From Tolypothrix carrinoi HA7290-LM1 (lineage in GTDB: Bacteria > Cyanobacteriota > Cyanobacteriia > Cyanobacteriales > Nostocaceae): a stretch of 13,267 bases of DNA. Where the stretch lies: assembly GCA_019358935.1 (NCBI GenBank), contig JAHHIK010000161.1, positions 1-13,267 of the forward strand, written 5' to 3'. Positions within the stretch are counted from its first letter, which is position 1, and every line of letters starts with the position of its first letter. Positions 6,001 to 13,267 of the stretch are shown piece after piece. The position numbers are program-made.

Positions 6001-9000
6001 ATTAAAGTTGGCATTCATCGTATTTGTGACCAAAGAAATTTTTATCAAAGTCTTGGTTAGCAAGACTTTCAGCACTTGTACGGCTGTTGGTGACACCCGA
6101 TCTGCTATTGGACGATATTGGGCTAACACAACCCATACAAGTGTATAAGTCGATTGGACTTGAATCTATCTAAAAATAGAAGCAGGAAAAACAAGCAATT
6201 ATCTAGAGCTTTTCCTTCTGCTCAGAAGAATAGCTCAAATTCTAGTTTTTCTGTCAAACTGGCTGATTTTATAATCCAGCAAACAATGCTGTAAGCCAGT
6301 CCTGGAGCCGTATTGCCAATTAGAGGAAATGTCTAATATTTTTCATGCTTGATTACTTAGTCTTCAGACCAATTACTAGCTTAATCACTCCGAGAATTTC
6401 TTAACTAAGAGGTTATTAACTATGAATCGTAACTTTATCTATCGCATTGTAGAACTCACTAATGCTAAACGTCGGTCTTCTGGTTTGCCAGAACTGAGAT
6501 TTAACCCTGTGTTAGCAGCAGCAGCACAGAAACATAGTGCAGACATGGCATTGGAGGACTTTTTCAGTCATAAAAGCCCAAATGGAAGCAAACCTTCAGA
6601 TCGTGCCCAAGCTGAAGGTTATCCATCAACCTATGTCGGTGAAAACATTTATGCAGGTGGTTCCACCCCAGAAAATGCTTTTGAAGGATGGATGAACAGT
6701 GAAGGACATCGCAATAACATCCTGAGTCCAAATTATCAAGAAATTGGAGTTGGTTACTACTATCTAGGCAATGATACAGGTAACGTTAATTACAAACATT
6801 ACTGGACACAATGCTTTGGCAAACCCTAATCAAAGACGTAATTTAGTTGAATTTAACTAAATCACCGCTTACTGACAAATCATTAAAATCTATTTCTACA
6901 TTTGGGAGGTTGTTACCATGAGCCAAGAATTTATCAATCGTGTTGTAGAACTTACTAACATCGAACGTCAGAAAGCAGGTTTACCACCATTGAGATTCAA
7001 TGGTCGGTTAGCTGTAGCCGCTCAAAAGCACAGTGTAGACATGGCAATGCGGGACTATTTCAATCATACAGGAGAAGATGGTTCATCCCCATTTGACCGC
7101 ATTAAAGCTACAGGCTATCGATACTCCCGTGCAGCAGAAAATATTGCAGCAGGTCGGTCTACCCCAGAAGATACCGTTAAGGGATGGATGAACAGCCCAG
7201 GACATCGCAAAAACATTCTGACTCCAGATTATAAGGAAATAGGGGTTGGTTATTATTTCTTAGCTAAGGATATGGGTGACGTTAATTACAAACACTACTG
7301 GACACAAGTTTTTGGTACACCCTTGTAAATGATGAGGATGGGTAATATGACCGCACCTAGCACGCTAACAAGTACTCCTTCACTCTTATAAATCTCACTT
7401 GAACAGAAGATTTTGTTATGTCTCAATTTCTTGGTATTGCTTTTCAGCCTTATGTTGGTCGCTGGACTGGAACTCCTCCAAACGCCACGACTCCGTGGTG
7501 GAATTCATACAGCCAGCAGGATATTGTCCGTATGCTTGAGGTCATTGCCTCCAAATTCAACAAAATTTGCACATATGGGATGGGTTATGCAGGCTATCAC
7601 CAGCCCACAACACCTTGGGATCAAGTAGATTCTAACTGTCGTGTTGCTGTTGCTGCTGCTCAGTTGAATCAGCAGAGGGGTCAGGTTGTTATTGAGGTAG
7701 CTCAAGGAATTTATCAGCAACTGCCAAACGCGGCACTACAACAGGCAGAAATTAAAGCTGCTTTTTCTGCGGCTCAAGCAGCGAACGCTGTTTATCCCAA
7801 TACGGTAACTTCTTTTGTATTCACAAATGAATATGTAGTTAACGCAGAGACAACCAATGCTGTCAACGCGATGATTGTAGCTAACAAGCAGAAAGCTAGA
7901 AGCCTGAATATCAAAGTGGGCGTGCGATCGCATACCTTTGGAAATATTGCCAACCCAAACAGCCCGTTTTACAACGAGTTGAAAACCCTCATTCAGAATT
8001 GCGATTTTATCCTTTGCAACCTTTATCCGGCTTTGAATACAGCCACTCCGATTGAAGGTGTAAATGGGGTAGCTCAAGCCTTCAATACTATTAAAACAGC
8101 TGTTGCCGCAATTAAGCCGCAGTGCGAAGTCATGATTGGCGAAACTGGATGGTCTTCCCAAGGAATTAGCTTTAACAACACAGCCAACAATGTACAAAAT
8201 CTTCTTGCCTACTACAAGGCAATTGATAAGTGGGCATTTGAGCAGAAAGTAACAACTTACCTTTTTGAGGCATTTGACGAGCCTTGGAAAAGCAACCAGA
8301 ACGCCCAAGTTCCTCCAGAAAACCCTTGGTCTGGACCAAACGGTGCTGAGGGACACTACGGTCTGTGGTATCTCAACGACCAAGGAAAGTATACGGAGAA
8401 AAGGGCGTAACTTAATTGTGGCTTCTGGTCTTTTTACAACTCAATTATTGAAAGGAGAAAATCATGACAGCTGCTCAAGCATCTAGCCAAACTTATACTG
8501 TCCAACCTGGGGACACGCTATTTTTGATAGCCCAAAAAGTCTACGGGGATGGCAATCGTTGGCGTGAAATTTATGAAGCTAATCGTGGTGTAATAGGAGG
8601 TAACCCAGAGCAGATTCAAGTTGGGATGGTACTTGTTATCCCAGGACTTGGTCAGCCGAATCCCAATCCCCCTAACACATTAAATCTAGAAGCTACATTC
8701 TATAGCAGGGAAGAAACACAAGGACATCCGCCTGCAACAGGTGTACATGGAGTTACATTGCAAGAAGCCCTAAGCGGTAGAGGGCGCGTACAGTGTGCTG
8801 TAGACCCAAATGTTATTCCCCTGCTAAAAGAGTTCACCCTGATACTATGGGACGGTAGGCAGGTTCCTGCATCTGCGTTAGATAAGGGTACGGCAATTAT
8901 CGGTAATAGAATTGATCTATTTGTCGATACCATCCAAGAGGCAATTAATTTAGGTAGACAGCCAGTCCAGGCAATTCTTTGATTGATTGTTAAAGAATTT

Positions 9001-12000: not shown

Positions 12001-13267
12001 TCCTCAGTTACGTCCGTATACCATAAAACAGGGAGATACACTTTATTTAGTTGCTGAACGAGAGTTAGGTGATGGCAACCGTTGGCGTGAAATCATGAAA
12101 TCAGCCAATGGCGGCTCTTTTACAGAACAGGAGGCTAATAATTTGCAACCGGGTCAGGTAGTCTACCTTCCTTAACTTGAGGATGTCTCCGTATAACTGC
12201 TAGGCTAAACTCAGTAGTCAGGAATCGAAAACTCCCATCCGAAGAATTAAGTTTTCAGCCATCAATTCGCTGGCAAAACTTCTCCTGTCAATTTTCGGAC
12301 TACTGAGACTCGGATTTGAGGCAGCTACTCTGTTTTTTAATAAACGCAAATGTCGTCAAATAATGCGTCAAAGCTCGTAACAGGCGAAATCCTTTTCTCT
12401 GAAGACTTGGATTCATTTTCTGGAGCCAAAGTGAATGTGTACCTTGAAGATGTGAGTTCTCTGGATGCTCCTTCTAAGATTATCGCCAAACAAGTGATTC
12501 CTGATATCTCCCATGAAGTGGGGACTGAGAATCAAGTCAAATTTGCCCTAAAAAGTGAGACTTCAAATAAACAGGCAAGTTATTCAATCCGCGTACACGT
12601 CTCTGTTCATGGAGATGAACAAATTCACCGTGGAGATTACATCACTATGGAGAGCTATCCAGTTCTTACATTTGGGTATCCAAATCAGGTATCGGTACGT
12701 GTGCGAGAGGTGAAGTAGTATTTTTGGCGGAAATAGAAAGAAGCGCAAAAAGTTCTTTTTTAAATGCTAACCAAGCCTTGGTAGATTTTGATTTGGTGCA
12801 AACTATGCTGCAATTTGCAAAGGCAAAACCAGGACTTACGCAACTGGCACATGCGATGGCGTTTGGTTTGCCAAGCGTAGAAAAACGCTCGCAATATATG
12901 CATTGGCACGTCTGGACGTTTCAATCATCTTTCATCCTAAGAGACTTGATTACAATAAATGTAAATAAAATTTATTTTCGTTTTCGCGATCGCCTACGGT
13001 GTGTCATAGGCTCGCGCATCTTTGATTACCCTGGGAAAATTTTAGTTCATTTGTACTAACTAGGACAGGCTCAAGTTTCGGGTGGTTGCGCTTATACTTA
13101 ATGTATATCAATCCCCACAAAGGTTTCGGGTTTCGCACTCCTGACCAGAAAACGAGACGCAAGCCCCTGGATGCGCGACATGGGGATAAGTCGGAGGCGA
13201 CTTTAGTCGCTTTCCAAATTCTTCTATTAACTCACTAACACTAATGCCTCTACTGTTTGCCTCGTTT

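What a model noticed while it worked through the whole genome (the two positions that open the first line are those of the whole stretch)
6422..12175. Operon of plant-PR-like proteins: two CAP (PR-1), GH17 glucanase (PR-2), LysM proteins, thaumatin (PR-5) and astacin
Seven same-strand genes in a row encode two CAP/PR-1 domain proteins, a GH17 beta-1,3-glucanase homologue, two LysM proteins (one with a 3D lytic domain), a 16-cysteine thaumatin-like protein with a signal peptide, and an astacin protease. Boldest reading: this is a bacterial counterpart of the plant pathogenesis-related protein set, an anti-fungal/anti-oomycete (beta-1,3-glucan and chitin wall) weapon kit of a genus already known for antifungal lipopeptides. 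New: PR-1, PR-2 and PR-5 homologues joined in one prokaryotic operon.
Evidence so far: g07188, g07189 CAP (E 4e-27, 5e-29), g07190 Glyco_hydro_17 (E 6e-9, C-terminal third of the model only), g07191 LysM+3D, g07192 LysM, g07193 Thaumatin (E 6e-36, full model 1-209; 16 Cys; hydrophobic N-terminus), g07194 Astacin (E 2e-54). Rarity: Thaumatin in 3 of 388 Nostocaceae and 3 of 3329 Cyanobacteriota genomes, GH17 in 14 and 23; CAP next to GH17 in 14 genomes of all compared, 13 of them Cyanobacteriales; thaumatin next to LysM or astacin in 1 genome of the order. Closest named thaumatins outside unnamed metagenome proteins: springtails and gall midges at 50-55% identity, Rokubacteria and Polyangiaceae MAGs at 47-51%; Swiss-Prot best: Prunus TLP 32%. 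A GH64 beta-1,3-glucanase (g06162, [...]
(Added by a program. Inside this text positions count along the whole contig: contig position 1 is position 1 of the stretch shown here. "Call 12" and the like, gene names such as g00115 and contig names such as C1 are that model's own, and its searches are not shown. The text may have been shortened before it was handed on; [...] marks where a part breaks off. The agent that wrote the report below was given it as the finding of a first reader that could run no searches.)

Follow-up and report, generated by a model that had tools for sequence, protein, structure and literature searches.

The report
Signal-less wall-attacking gene island in Nostocaceae
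A filamentous cyanobacterium carries a row of genes for proteins resembling plant anti-fungal defence proteins, and related strains add chitinases and other fungal-wall enzymes to the same gene island, yet almost none of these proteins has the usual export signal.

Summary
Eight same-strand genes (6422-12718) encode two CAP proteins, a GH17 glucanase, LysM-3D, LysM plus a lysozyme-like domain, a Sec-signalled 16-Cys thaumatin, a LegP-like astacin-LysM zymogen and a YscW-like protein.

GH17 is full length with both catalytic Glu present.

The cluster is one version of a modular island. GH17 occurs in 20 of 389 family genomes and thaumatin in 6 of 389. Sister versions swap in GH64, LysM-GH19, GH18, GH30 and alpha-1,3-glucanase genes, and CAP fused to LysM, crystallin or lectin modules.

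Three things are new here:
- By a hydrophobicity heuristic, of 96 island proteins only the thaumatins and one CVNH lectin have a signal-peptide-like N-terminus.
- The YscW-like protein is predicted to plug the astacin active site (ipSAE 0.91, best control 0.00) and sits beside the astacin in 6 of 7 genomes, like an effector-immunity pair.
- A DUF1822 gene and a 520-aa sigma-r4-like gene accompany the island five times.

Expression, enzyme activity, protein location and target are all untested.

The parts
3072..4193 (-). DUF1822 protein (373 aa), the second gene of a divergent pair that accompanies the island
   Evidence: Pfam PF08852, E 2.1e-53. Paired with the 520-aa gene beside island genes in G058, G125 and G343, and in a second degenerate island on own contig C73.
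4258..5820 (-). 520-aa protein of no Pfam or NCBIfam family. Candidate sigma-70 region-4-like DNA-binding regulator, transcribed divergently from the island.
   Evidence: No family found. Protein-language-model neighbours are cyanobacterial clusters in which 12-87% of members carry Sigma70_r4 (a lead only). 689 homologues, two of which JGI names YlxM-like DNA-binding.
5821..6421 (.). 600-bp divergent intergenic region, presumed to hold the promoters
   Evidence: Lies between the two divergent gene sets. Only weak sigma-70-like matches, no more than the shuffled expectation. Ribosome-binding sites AAGAGG and GGGAGG precede the two CAP starts.
6422..6829 (+). CAP-domain protein 1 (135 aa), domain only, no signal peptide, 1 Cys
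   Evidence: PF00188, E 1.1e-26, residues 11-132. TIGR02909 YkwD 113 bits, below its cut-off of 171. In-frame stop 14 codons upstream; maximum hydrophobicity 1.11.
6918..7328 (+). CAP-domain protein 2 (136 aa), 61% identical to CAP 1, no signal peptide, 0 Cys
   Evidence: PF00188, E 1.3e-28. Paralogy. In-frame stop 14 codons upstream.
7418..8410 (+). GH17-family (beta/alpha)8 glycoside hydrolase (330 aa) with the acid/base Glu138 (TNEY) and the nucleophile Glu242 (GETGW); no signal peptide
   Evidence: A family profile matches the GH17 structures 6fcg (E 5.8e-30, full length) and 4wtp (E 8.1e-20), with both Glu aligned. AlphaFold2 pLDDT 93.8. The top Foldseek hits are GH17. Residue positions and an in-frame stop 5 codons upstream.
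8464..8982 (+). LysM plus 3D (MltA-like double-psi beta-barrel) protein, 172 aa, no signal peptide
   Evidence: PF01476 E 4.7e-10 and PF06725 E 3.4e-9. A 3D gene lies near GH17 in 15 of 18 genomes examined. In-frame stop 4 codons upstream.
9133..9921 (+). LysM plus a lysozyme or lytic-transglycosylase-like domain (262 aa), with candidate catalytic Glu87-Ser88; no signal peptide
   Evidence: PF01476. AlphaFold2 pLDDT 88.3. VIA-align: MltE Z 8.1, MltC 8.0, destabilase 7.8, Cj0843c 7.7, GH23 chitinase 6.1. Foldseek was weak. 355 homologues, cyanobacterial where named. The first 65 residues are 90.8% identical to those of the preceding gene.
10077..11009 (+). Thaumatin-like protein (310 aa from ATG 10077; the maximal ORF starts at TTG 9933) with a Sec-type signal (...FFPSASA/AIAQE) and 16 Cys
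   Evidence: PF00314, E 1.3e-35, full model. Best solved match 2ahn, E 4.1e-22. Hydrophobicity 2.89 at residue 35. Cys and cleft residues.
11186..12175 (+). Astacin (M12A) zymogen with a C-terminal LysM (329 aa from ATG 11186; the maximal ORF starts at TTG 11081). Motifs HEIGHALGLWHE, SIMHY, and pro-segment FEGCI. No signal peptide.
   Evidence: PF01400, E 3.5e-54. NCBIfam LegP NF045530, 325 bits against a cut-off of 300. Motifs from the alignment. Solved astacins match at E 6e-43.
12350..12718 (+). YscW/PF09619-like protein of 122 aa, predicted active-site inhibitor (immunity-like partner) of the astacin
   Evidence: PF09619, E 6.5e-9. Adjacent to the astacin in 6 of 7 genomes. Predicted complex ipSAE 0.91, best control 0.00. 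Invariant Asp39 touches His171, Glu172 and His175 of the astacin.

Best explanation
The window holds one version of a modular gene island that is patchily spread among heterocystous cyanobacteria. The island encodes a cocktail of proteins that attack foreign cell walls.

Proposed roles in this version:
- GH17 and the thaumatin-like protein (with a GH64 gene elsewhere in the genome) act on beta-1,3-glucan.
- LysM-3D and LysM-lysozyme-like act on GlcNAc polymers, meaning chitin and/or peptidoglycan.
- The astacin digests wall proteins.
- The two CAP proteins are PR-1-type accessory effectors.

The most likely targets are fungi or oomycetes that contact or penetrate the filaments, with bacteria as a secondary target.

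The astacin is made as a latent zymogen (pro-segment FEGCI) and is further held in check by the co-encoded YscW-like protein, which blocks its active site. A divergent gene pair (the 520-aa sigma-r4-like protein and DUF1822) probably regulates the island.

Shown here: gene content, folds, catalytic residues, recurrence and shuffling of the island, and the absence of signal peptides.
Inferred: the target, the regulation, and inhibitor binding (model only).
Unknown: how the signal-less proteins reach their target.
For: 1. Families and catalytic residues.

2. Recurrence: the GH17 protein is in 20 of 389 family genomes, in 13 of 68 genera, and in 3 of 401 genomes in a phylum-wide sample. Thaumatin is in 6 of 389 and this astacin in 7 of 389.

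3. Sister islands: by my reading, covering 18 of the 20 GH17 genomes (2 fragment-only genomes were not fetched), these genes lie near GH17:
- CAP in 15 genomes.
- A 3D gene in 15.
- GH19 in 9; eight of these ORFs also gave a Pfam LysM hit, and the ninth begins with the same N-terminal sequence.
- GH64 in 8.
- GH18 in 4.
- GH30 in 1.
- Alpha-1,3-glucanase with polysaccharide deacetylase and GH25 in 1.
Chitin, beta-1,3-, beta-1,6- and alpha-1,3-glucan are fungal wall polymers (established knowledge).

4. Targeting modules differ but all bind sugars: LysM, beta/gamma-crystallin, B-lectin, malectin and CVNH, fused to or beside CAP, astacin-like and GH domains.

5. Thaumatin is always within about 3 kb of GH17 or of a GH17 remnant in all 6 thaumatin genomes.

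6. A patchy, shuffled distribution with transposases nearby fits an accessory conflict trait rather than a housekeeping one. G+C is native-like: 0.438 in the island against 0.423 in the genome.

7. Astacin and its partner: adjacent in 6 of 7 genomes. Predicted complex ipSAE 0.91 against a best control of 0.00. That mark was reached by 116 of 157 solved complexes and 2 of 215 mismatched pairs; my own small alignments were used, so these counts hold only roughly. The three runs agree in at least 96% of contacts, and partner pLDDT is 88. The interface lies on the zinc site and the edge strand. The only solved relative of the partner is a lone lipoprotein, 5wec.
Against: - No expression, activity or localisation data. 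No RNA run is listed for this DNA.
- Seven of the eight proteins have no room for a signal peptide, so an extracellular target is an assumption.
- This genome has no GH19 and no GH18 hit. Its version is richer in domains known from peptidoglycan enzymes (LysM, 3D, lysozyme-like).
- Bacterial and fungal GH17 members include glucanosyltransferases (4wtp), so hydrolysis is not certain.
- Heterocyst and akinete envelopes contain beta-1,3-linked sugars (recalled, not from a call), so a self target is possible.
- One of the five acidic-cleft residues of thaumatin-like proteins is Asn here. That position is Asp in 48 and Asn in 12 of 60 homologues.
- The lysozyme-like fold match is mid-range (Z about 8), and the candidate Glu is not invariant in the family.
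Confidence: 0.55

Rival explanations
1. Remodelling of the cell's own envelope. The enzymes cut the cyanobacterium's own peptidoglycan, sheath, or heterocyst or akinete envelope polysaccharide during akinete germination, hormogonium release or filament breakage.
For: LysM, 3D and lysozyme-like domains are classical autolysin parts, and the CAP proteins resemble spore-associated YkwD and the divisome lipoprotein DalA, though below the cut-offs. Beta-1,3-linked sugars occur in heterocyst and akinete envelopes (recalled).
Against: A developmental function should be widespread, but GH17 is in only 20 of 389 family genomes and thaumatin in 6. Sister islands carry chitinases, alpha-1,3-glucanase and GH30, for which cyanobacteria have no known own substrate. 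Signal-less proteins could not reach the periplasm or envelope by the usual routes either.
Confidence: 0.12
2. An antibacterial or general wall-lytic arsenal. The main targets are the peptidoglycan walls of competing or invading bacteria, and the glucanases serve against biofilm or capsule glucans.
For: LysM-3D and LysM-lysozyme-like genes in this window. GH25 and phage-type lysozyme genes in two sister loci. The effector-plus-inhibitor layout of astacin and the YscW-like protein resembles bacterial effector-immunity pairs.
Against: No immunity candidates sit next to the glycoside hydrolases. GH19 chitinase-subfamily enzymes, GH64, GH18, GH30, alpha-1,3-glucanase, thaumatin and mannose-type lectins (CVNH, B-lectin) point to eukaryotic walls. 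The GH19 paper places the cyanobacterial LysM-GH19 group in the chitinase subfamily, not the endolysin subfamily (PMC8547705, passages read).
Confidence: 0.15
3. A tool for symbiosis or coexistence. The proteins trim or mask fungal or plant wall fragments in lichen-like or plant associations rather than killing.
For: The GH19 paper notes that the cyanobacterial LysM-GH19 group is mainly from Nostocales and lichen-forming species, and proposes a role in modulating associations with fungi (PMC8547705, passages). LysM binds chitin oligomers (established knowledge).
Against: No evidence on the lifestyle of the island-bearing genomes was gathered here. The breadth of lytic activities plus a protease looks more destructive than modulating.
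Confidence: 0.1
4. Foraging: breakdown of external glucan or chitin for carbon or nitrogen.
For: The glycoside hydrolases have polymer specificities, and sulfatase and cupin genes occur in some sister loci.
Against: No sugar transporters or catabolic genes in the window or in most sister loci. There are no export signals. CAP, thaumatin and lectins are not catabolic.
Confidence: 0.05

Closest known systems
Plant pathogenesis-related protein set (PR-1 CAP, PR-2 GH17, PR-3/PR-8 chitinases GH19/GH18, PR-5 thaumatin-like)
   Same: The same protein families are present together: CAP, GH17 and thaumatin in this window, and GH19 and GH18 in sister islands. The LysM-3D layout (chitin-binding module plus double-psi beta-barrel) recalls PR-4, which is hevein plus barwin; that is a resemblance from recall at the fold-superfamily level.
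   Different: The genes are clustered in a bacterium. The CAP proteins are Cys-poor and YkwD-like. All but the thaumatin lack secretion signals. LysM or crystallin modules stand where plants use hevein. Induction by a pathogen is unknown.
Cyanobacterial LysM-GH19 chitinases (group CHIT 11-II of the GH19 Engineering Database, PMC8547705)
   Same: The same organisms (Nostocales) and the same N-terminal LysM design. These genes sit in the sister islands.
   Different: In the passages I read, the paper treats GH19 alone. It does not describe the island, its GH17, GH64, CAP, thaumatin and astacin partners, or the lack of signal peptides. This window has no GH19.
Secreted fungus-lysing enzyme sets of soil bacteria (Lysobacter, Streptomyces, myxobacteria: GH64, GH19, GH18, proteases) (recalled)
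   Same: A combination of beta-1,3-glucanase, chitinase and protease aimed at fungal walls.
   Different: Those enzymes carry Sec, Tat or T2SS signals and usual carbohydrate-binding modules. Here the signals are missing, and CAP and thaumatin are added.
Astacin latency and inhibition: the FXGDI aspartate switch of animal pro-astacins, the cysteine switch of bacterial myroilysin, and fetuin-B as a protein inhibitor (PMC9848320, passages read)
   Same: The zinc motif, the Met-turn and the FXG(D/C)I pro-segment motif are present. A predicted protein inhibitor places an Asp at the zinc site.
   Different: The pro-segment has the animal-type motif but with Cys (FEGCI) in 5 of 6 orthologues and Asp in 1. 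There is no signal peptide. The inhibitor is a PF09619 (YscW/YbaY-like) protein, not known to me as a protease inhibitor. The word 'cyanobacteria' does not occur in that review.
Legionella LegP (Dot/Icm-translocated astacin-like effector; NCBIfam NF045530)
   Same: The window's astacin scores 325 bits, above the model's cut-off of 300, over model positions 4-243 of 244. Both lack a signal peptide.
   Different: It is a cyanobacterial protein with a C-terminal LysM and a co-encoded inhibitor. I did not search this genome for a Dot/Icm system. The name reflects sequence likeness only.

Membership tests
Glycoside hydrolase family 17 | (beta/alpha)8 barrel related over its whole length to known GH17 enzymes | tested here: met
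   A profile of 26 relatives matches 6fcg at E 5.8e-30 over profile positions 20-344 of 366. AlphaFold2 pLDDT 93.8. The top Foldseek hits are 6fcg, 4wtp, 8akp and 3ur8.
Glycoside hydrolase family 17 | Acid/base Glu (NE motif) and nucleophile Glu (ETGW motif) | tested here: met
   TNEY at 136-139 and GETGW at 241-245. Both align to the corresponding positions of 6fcg and 4wtp. The nucleophile mutant 4wtr lacks exactly that Glu.
Glycoside hydrolase family 17 | Hydrolysis or transglycosylation of beta-1,3-glucan | not testable with these tools
   Needs an enzyme assay.
Thaumatin-like / PR-5 (PF00314) | Full domain with 16 conserved Cys (8 disulfides) | tested here: met
   Model positions 1-209 of 209, E 1.3e-35. 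16 Cys, of which 14 are conserved in 60 of 60 homologues and 2 in 57 and 55 of 60.
Thaumatin-like / PR-5 (PF00314) | Acidic cleft residues (the R-E-D-D-D set; motif recalled) | tested here: inconclusive
   Arg114, Glu151, Asp171 and Asp287 are invariant in 60 of 60. Position 166 is Asn here; it is Asp in 48 and Asn in 12 of 60.
Thaumatin-like / PR-5 (PF00314) | Secretion signal | tested here: met
   Hydrophobic core of 2.89 followed by ASA/AIAQE. All 6 cyanobacterial orthologues have a comparable N-terminus. This is a heuristic, not SignalP.
CAP superfamily / PR-1 | CAP domain | tested here: met
   PF00188 positions 2-117 of 117 in both proteins.
CAP superfamily / PR-1 | Secreted, disulfide-stabilised protein, as in plant PR-1 | tested here: not met
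   The domain starts at residue 11. In-frame stops lie 14 codons upstream. The proteins have 1 and 0 Cys. The closest curated model is bacterial YkwD, below its cut-off.
Astacin family (M12A) | HExxHxxGxxHE zinc site, SxMHY Met-turn and FXGDI-type pro-segment | tested here: met
   HEIGHALGLWHE and SIMHY are invariant in 6 of 6. The pro-segment reads FEGCI in 5 and FEGDI in 1. The motif definition is from PMC9848320.
Astacin family (M12A) | Signal peptide (the core architecture according to PMC9848320) | tested here: not met
   From ATG 11186 there is no hydrophobic N-terminus. The TTG 11081 extension is not kept in the orthologue ORFs.
Lysozyme-like / lytic transglycosylase superfamily (for 9133-9921) | Lysozyme-like fold with a catalytic Glu at the end of the first helix | tested here: inconclusive
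   VIA-align Z 8.1-6.0 to MltE, MltC, destabilase, Cj0843c, phiKZ gp144, Slt70, a GH23 chitinase and T4 lysozyme. Foldseek E above 0.001. Glu87-Ser88 lies at the end of helix 77-89, but Glu87 is replaced in several relatives.
Operon | One transcript | not tested
   Same strand and gaps of 53-176 bp are all that is shown. No RNA run is listed.
Effector-immunity (protease-inhibitor) pair | Conserved adjacency, and binding of the partner at the active site | tested here: inconclusive
   Adjacent in 6 of 7 genomes. Predicted complex 0.91 against 0.00, with the interface on His171, Glu172, His175 and His181. This is a model, not a measurement.

The most novel reading that the evidence does not exclude
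A cytoplasmically stored antifungal arsenal, acting as a form of innate immunity in a multicellular bacterium. The signal-less glucanases, chitinases, CAP proteins and protease are kept inside the cells, as plants keep class I chitinase and glucanase in the vacuole. They meet the enemy only when a fungal haustorium or chytrid rhizoid breaches a cell, or when the attacked cell is sacrificed. Sacrifice could be triggered by the caspase, CHAT or STAND genes that lie next to several islands. The astacin inhibitor, in its cytoplasmic form and (in two genomes) an additional lipoprotein form, protects the producer and its neighbouring cells.
Probability: 0.15. Interest if true: 0.9.

Novelty: new variant of a known kind. 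Interest (0 to 1): 0.68.

Why it matters
- Enzyme-based antifungal defence of cyanobacteria is described as poorly explored in a 2023 review (PMC10300848, passages read). This island gives it a concrete, recurrent genetic basis.
- It shows the plant PR families (PR-1, 2, 3, 5, 8) assembled convergently, or by transfer, in a bacterium.
- The systematic lack of export signals on about 90 normally secreted enzymes points to one of two things: an unrecognised export route in heterocystous cyanobacteria, or a release-on-breach defence. One preprint abstract reports that only about 22% of Anabaena extracellular proteins have predicted signals (10.64898/2026.06.08.730779, abstract).
- The predicted astacin-YscW-like complex would give a first function to a PF09619-type protein, and would add a new kind of astacin inhibitor.
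- The enzymes are candidates for biocontrol work.

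Tried and rejected
- RNA evidence: no RNA holder is listed for window 6300-12800.
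- Earlier findings: by place, by the GH17 sequence and by the combined words, nothing was found.
- Foldseek on the LysM-lysozyme-like model gave no match at E <= 0.001 for the C-terminal domain. Only VIA-align gave the lysozyme-like series.
- Pfam and NCBIfam gave nothing for the 520-aa protein, nor for the ORF at 12724-13059. That ORF is not conserved in the closest relative's locus, where homology ends at 12725, so I do not count it as a gene.
- Contig C184, which holds a caspase gene, has no similarity to the relative's region downstream of the island. What follows the island in this genome is unknown.
- Rejected: contamination or recent foreign origin of the contig. The island's G+C is 0.438 against 0.423 for the genome, and the flanks are syntenic with related genomes at 85-93% nucleotide identity.
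- Rejected: thaumatin recently taken from arthropods. In a quick tree, the 6 cyanobacterial proteins plus 12 unnamed ones form one clade (SH-aLRT 99) that groups (95) with the Polyangiaceae proteins and four unnamed ones. The arthropod proteins sit elsewhere (93), next to a Rokubacteria group. This was a quick search only; the careful tree did not finish, and the root is at the midpoint.
- Literature: searches found no paper describing such an island, judged from the listings and the passages read. One search (three accession numbers and locus tags) found 0 papers.

Full report
**What is there**

The window is a whole 13,267-bp contig (C161) of a 7.96-Mb, 184-contig genome rated 99.65% complete. 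On the + strand from 6422 to 12718 lie eight genes separated by 53-176 bp. It also adds a PF09619 (YscW-like) protein at 12350-12718. Upstream and divergent are a 520-aa protein of no known family, a DUF1822 protein, and a low-G+C dynamin-like GTPase. The two CAP genes have clear ribosome-binding sites. The promoter and terminator scans give nothing above chance. The island's G+C (0.438) is close to the genome's (0.423), so it is not a contaminant.

**The individual proteins: GH17 and the LysM proteins**

The Pfam match to GH17 covers only the last third of the protein. A profile built from 26 relatives, drawn from 755 representatives found, matches GH17 structures over the whole length. The Formosa endo-laminarinase 6fcg scores E 5.8e-30 and the Rhizomucor glucanosyltransferase 4wtp scores E 8.1e-20. 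The NE acid/base and ETGW nucleophile motifs both align. These are Glu138 and Glu242 in the window's protein. The AlphaFold2 model (pLDDT 93.8) finds GH17 structures first.

The second LysM protein has a 190-residue C-terminal domain that is common in cyanobacteria, with 355 homologues. Its model (pLDDT 88.3) aligns with a long series of lysozyme-like enzymes:
- MltE, Z 8.1 (rmsd 3.2, 122 residues aligned)
- MltC, Z 8.0
- destabilase, Z 7.8
- Cj0843c, Z 7.7
- phiKZ gp144, Z 7.2
- a GH23 chitinase, Z 6.1 (all)

Foldseek alone was weak, and the candidate Glu87 is not invariant in the family. I therefore call this fold likely, not certain.

**The individual proteins: thaumatin, astacin and CAP**

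The thaumatin-like protein has 16 Cys. Four of the five acidic-cleft residues are invariant. The fifth is Asn, as in 12 of 60 homologues.

The astacin has the zinc motif, the Met-turn and an FXG(D/C)I pro-segment motif (motif definition from PMC9848320). It exceeds the cut-off of NCBI's LegP model.

The CAP proteins are bare, Cys-poor and YkwD-like.

**The island elsewhere**

- Thaumatin is found in 6 of 389 family genomes, each in a different genus.
- The GH17 protein is in 20 of 389 family genomes.
- In a phylum-wide sample of 401 genomes GH17 appears in 3: the own genome, 1 of 45 of the same family, and 1 of 25 of a second family of the same order.
- I fetched the surroundings for 18 of the 20 GH17 genomes and for 4 further astacin genomes, and annotated 238 ORFs (150, 58 and 30) by tblastn and Pfam.
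- The closest relative's locus is 85-93% identical at the DNA level. There, GH17 is reduced to a 33-residue remnant, and LysM-GH19 and LysM-GH18 genes have been inserted.
- Other versions carry one or two GH64 beta-1,3-glucanases, GH30, an alpha-1,3-glucanase with a polysaccharide deacetylase and GH25, a phage-type lysozyme, a papain-like protease, malectin-GH26 and a CVNH lectin.
- CAP is fused to LysM, beta/gamma-crystallin or B-lectin, and astacin-like proteins are fused to crystallin.
- Transposase genes flank several versions.
- The LysM modules of the two adjacent LysM genes in the window are 90.8% identical over 65 residues. This fits shuffling through the shared module.

**What this implies**

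The island is a variable kit. Its enzyme specificities, taken over all versions, add up to the polymers of fungal walls (chitin, and beta-1,3-, beta-1,6- and alpha-1,3-glucan, plus mannoprotein-binding lectins), with some peptidoglycan hydrolases. The rarity of the island argues against a core developmental role. This genome's own version lacks chitinases. It would suit glucan-rich walls such as those of oomycetes, or bacterial walls, at least as well as chitin-rich ones.

**The missing signals**

For CAP 1, CAP 2, GH17, both LysM proteins and the YscW-like protein, an in-frame stop lies 2-14 codons upstream of the start. The first domain begins within 11 residues.

I applied a simple hydrophobicity test (mean Kyte-Doolittle 2.2 or more over 11 residues) to 96 island proteins from 20 loci. 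It flagged 7:
- five thaumatins;
- one Cys-rich CVNH lectin;
- the doubtful TTG-extended form of the window's astacin.

The window's thaumatin is flagged when read from ATG 10077. The same test flagged 15 of 31 more distant GH17-family proteins, so it does detect signals where they exist. Absence of a signal is therefore a rule of this island.

One preprint abstract reports predicted signals in only about 22% of Anabaena extracellular proteins. Export is therefore not excluded.

**Astacin and its partner**

This astacin occurs in 7 of 389 family genomes. A YscW-like gene follows it in 6 of these, and the seventh has only a fragment of the astacin. Two genomes carry a second copy of the partner with a lipoprotein-type signal.

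The complex prediction used astacin residues 80-275 and the whole partner, with my own alignments of 6 and 8 rows:
- ipSAE 0.91 against a best control of 0.00.
- The three runs agree in at least 96% of contacts; partner pLDDT is 88.
- The mark was reached by 116 of 157 solved complexes and 2 of 215 mismatched pairs. Those counts hold only roughly here, because my own alignments were used.
- Partner loop 35-44, with its invariant Asp39, lies on His171, Glu172 and His175 and on the edge strand 144-149.

The only solved relative of the partner is a lone lipoprotein, 5wec (E 2e-9), which shares the same loop motif. The model supports binding; it does not show it.

**The divergent pair**

The 520-aa gene and the DUF1822 gene sit beside island genes in the window, in three other genomes of three genera, and in a second, decayed island on own contig C73. 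That island holds a truncated LysM-CAP, a LysM-lysozyme-like gene and an astacin-like gene, interrupted by a group II intron and a TnpB gene. The 520-aa family is large and cyanobacterial (689 hits). Its language-model neighbours carry sigma-70 region 4 (a lead only). I infer a regulatory role; this is untested.

**Comparison with what is known, and novelty**

Already known:
- Bacterial thaumatin-like proteins are not rare (earlier notes of this scan).
- LysM-GH19 chitinases of Nostocales have been classified (PMC8547705).

I found none of the following in print:
- the island as a unit;
- the joint presence of PR-1, 2, 3, 5 and 8-type families in it;
- the rule of missing signals;
- the astacin-inhibitor pair.

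I rate the finding a new variant of a known kind, namely bacterial fungus-lysing enzyme sets and PR-type defence proteins.

Noticed in passing
window 673-2949 (-) and 230-499 (-): A 758-aa dynamin-like GTPase (Dynamin_N E 6e-12; CrfC-like) and a small ORF lie in a stretch of only 23-32% G+C, against 42% for the genome. This gene gave no tblastn match in the five thaumatin loci compared, including the closest relative's.
   Followed up: no
own genome contig C73, about 23.6-31.4 kb (locus L064 3646-11407): A second, decayed island. DUF1822 and a paralogue of the 520-aa gene are divergent from a truncated LysM-CAP, a LysM-lysozyme-like gene (72.5% identical) and an astacin-like gene. It is interrupted by a group II intron reverse transcriptase and followed by a TnpB-like gene.
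   Followed up: partly
loci L009, L010, L036, L037, L047, L060: Caspase (C14), CHAT-TPR, CHAT-AAA_35, EAD4-iSTAND and nSTAND1-WD40 genes lie within 10 kb of island genes. In G058, 3 of its 12 C14 matches are within 10 kb of island genes. These families are abundant, at 9-34 C14 matches per genome, so this could be chance.
   Followed up: partly
sister loci, e.g. L010 7686-9317, L039 10411-11827: Many island proteins start with a LysM variant beginning MSC...SY.VK.GDTL and ending ...QEICIP. Two conserved Cys lie at the two ends of the module, so a disulfide clamp is possible. That would imply an oxidising, non-cytoplasmic location.
   Followed up: no
loci L060 5125-5577 and L061 12215-12667: A second YscW-like paralogue of 150 aa has a lipoprotein-type signal, next to the signal-less copy.
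   Followed up: partly
protein P0132 (390 aa, metagenome): It was hit both by GH17 (76% identity to residues 163-272) and by the lysozyme-like domain (74%). It is either a natural fusion or a product of recombination between island genes.
   Followed up: no
proteins P0154, P0164, P0172, P0175, P0176: Distant GH17-like domains sit at the N-terminus of proteins with Tyr/Ser-Thr kinase domains, apparently as eukaryotic receptor-kinase ectodomains. Other relatives carry dockerin, PEP-CTERM, DUF4214 or Ig domains.
   Followed up: no
thaumatin homologues P0027-P0092: Springtail, gall-midge and fungus-gnat thaumatin-like proteins (50-55% identical) form one group (SH-aLRT 93) next to a Rokubacteria-containing group. 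This hints at transfer between soil bacteria and soil arthropods. The direction was not tested.
   Followed up: partly
own genome contig C109 26116-27177: The genome's only GH64 gene lies at the very end of its contig, so it may adjoin another island part in the real chromosome.
   Followed up: no
window 12724-13059 (+): A 111-aa ORF directly after the YscW-like gene has no family and is not conserved in the closest relative's locus. It is probably not a gene.
   Followed up: partly
PDB 5wec compared with window 12350-12718: The loop motif L(E/Q)DVS..DAP...IAKQ, which the model places in the astacin active site, is also conserved in an unrelated solved lipoprotein of the PF09619 family. Protease inhibition may therefore be a wider property of that family.
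   Followed up: no
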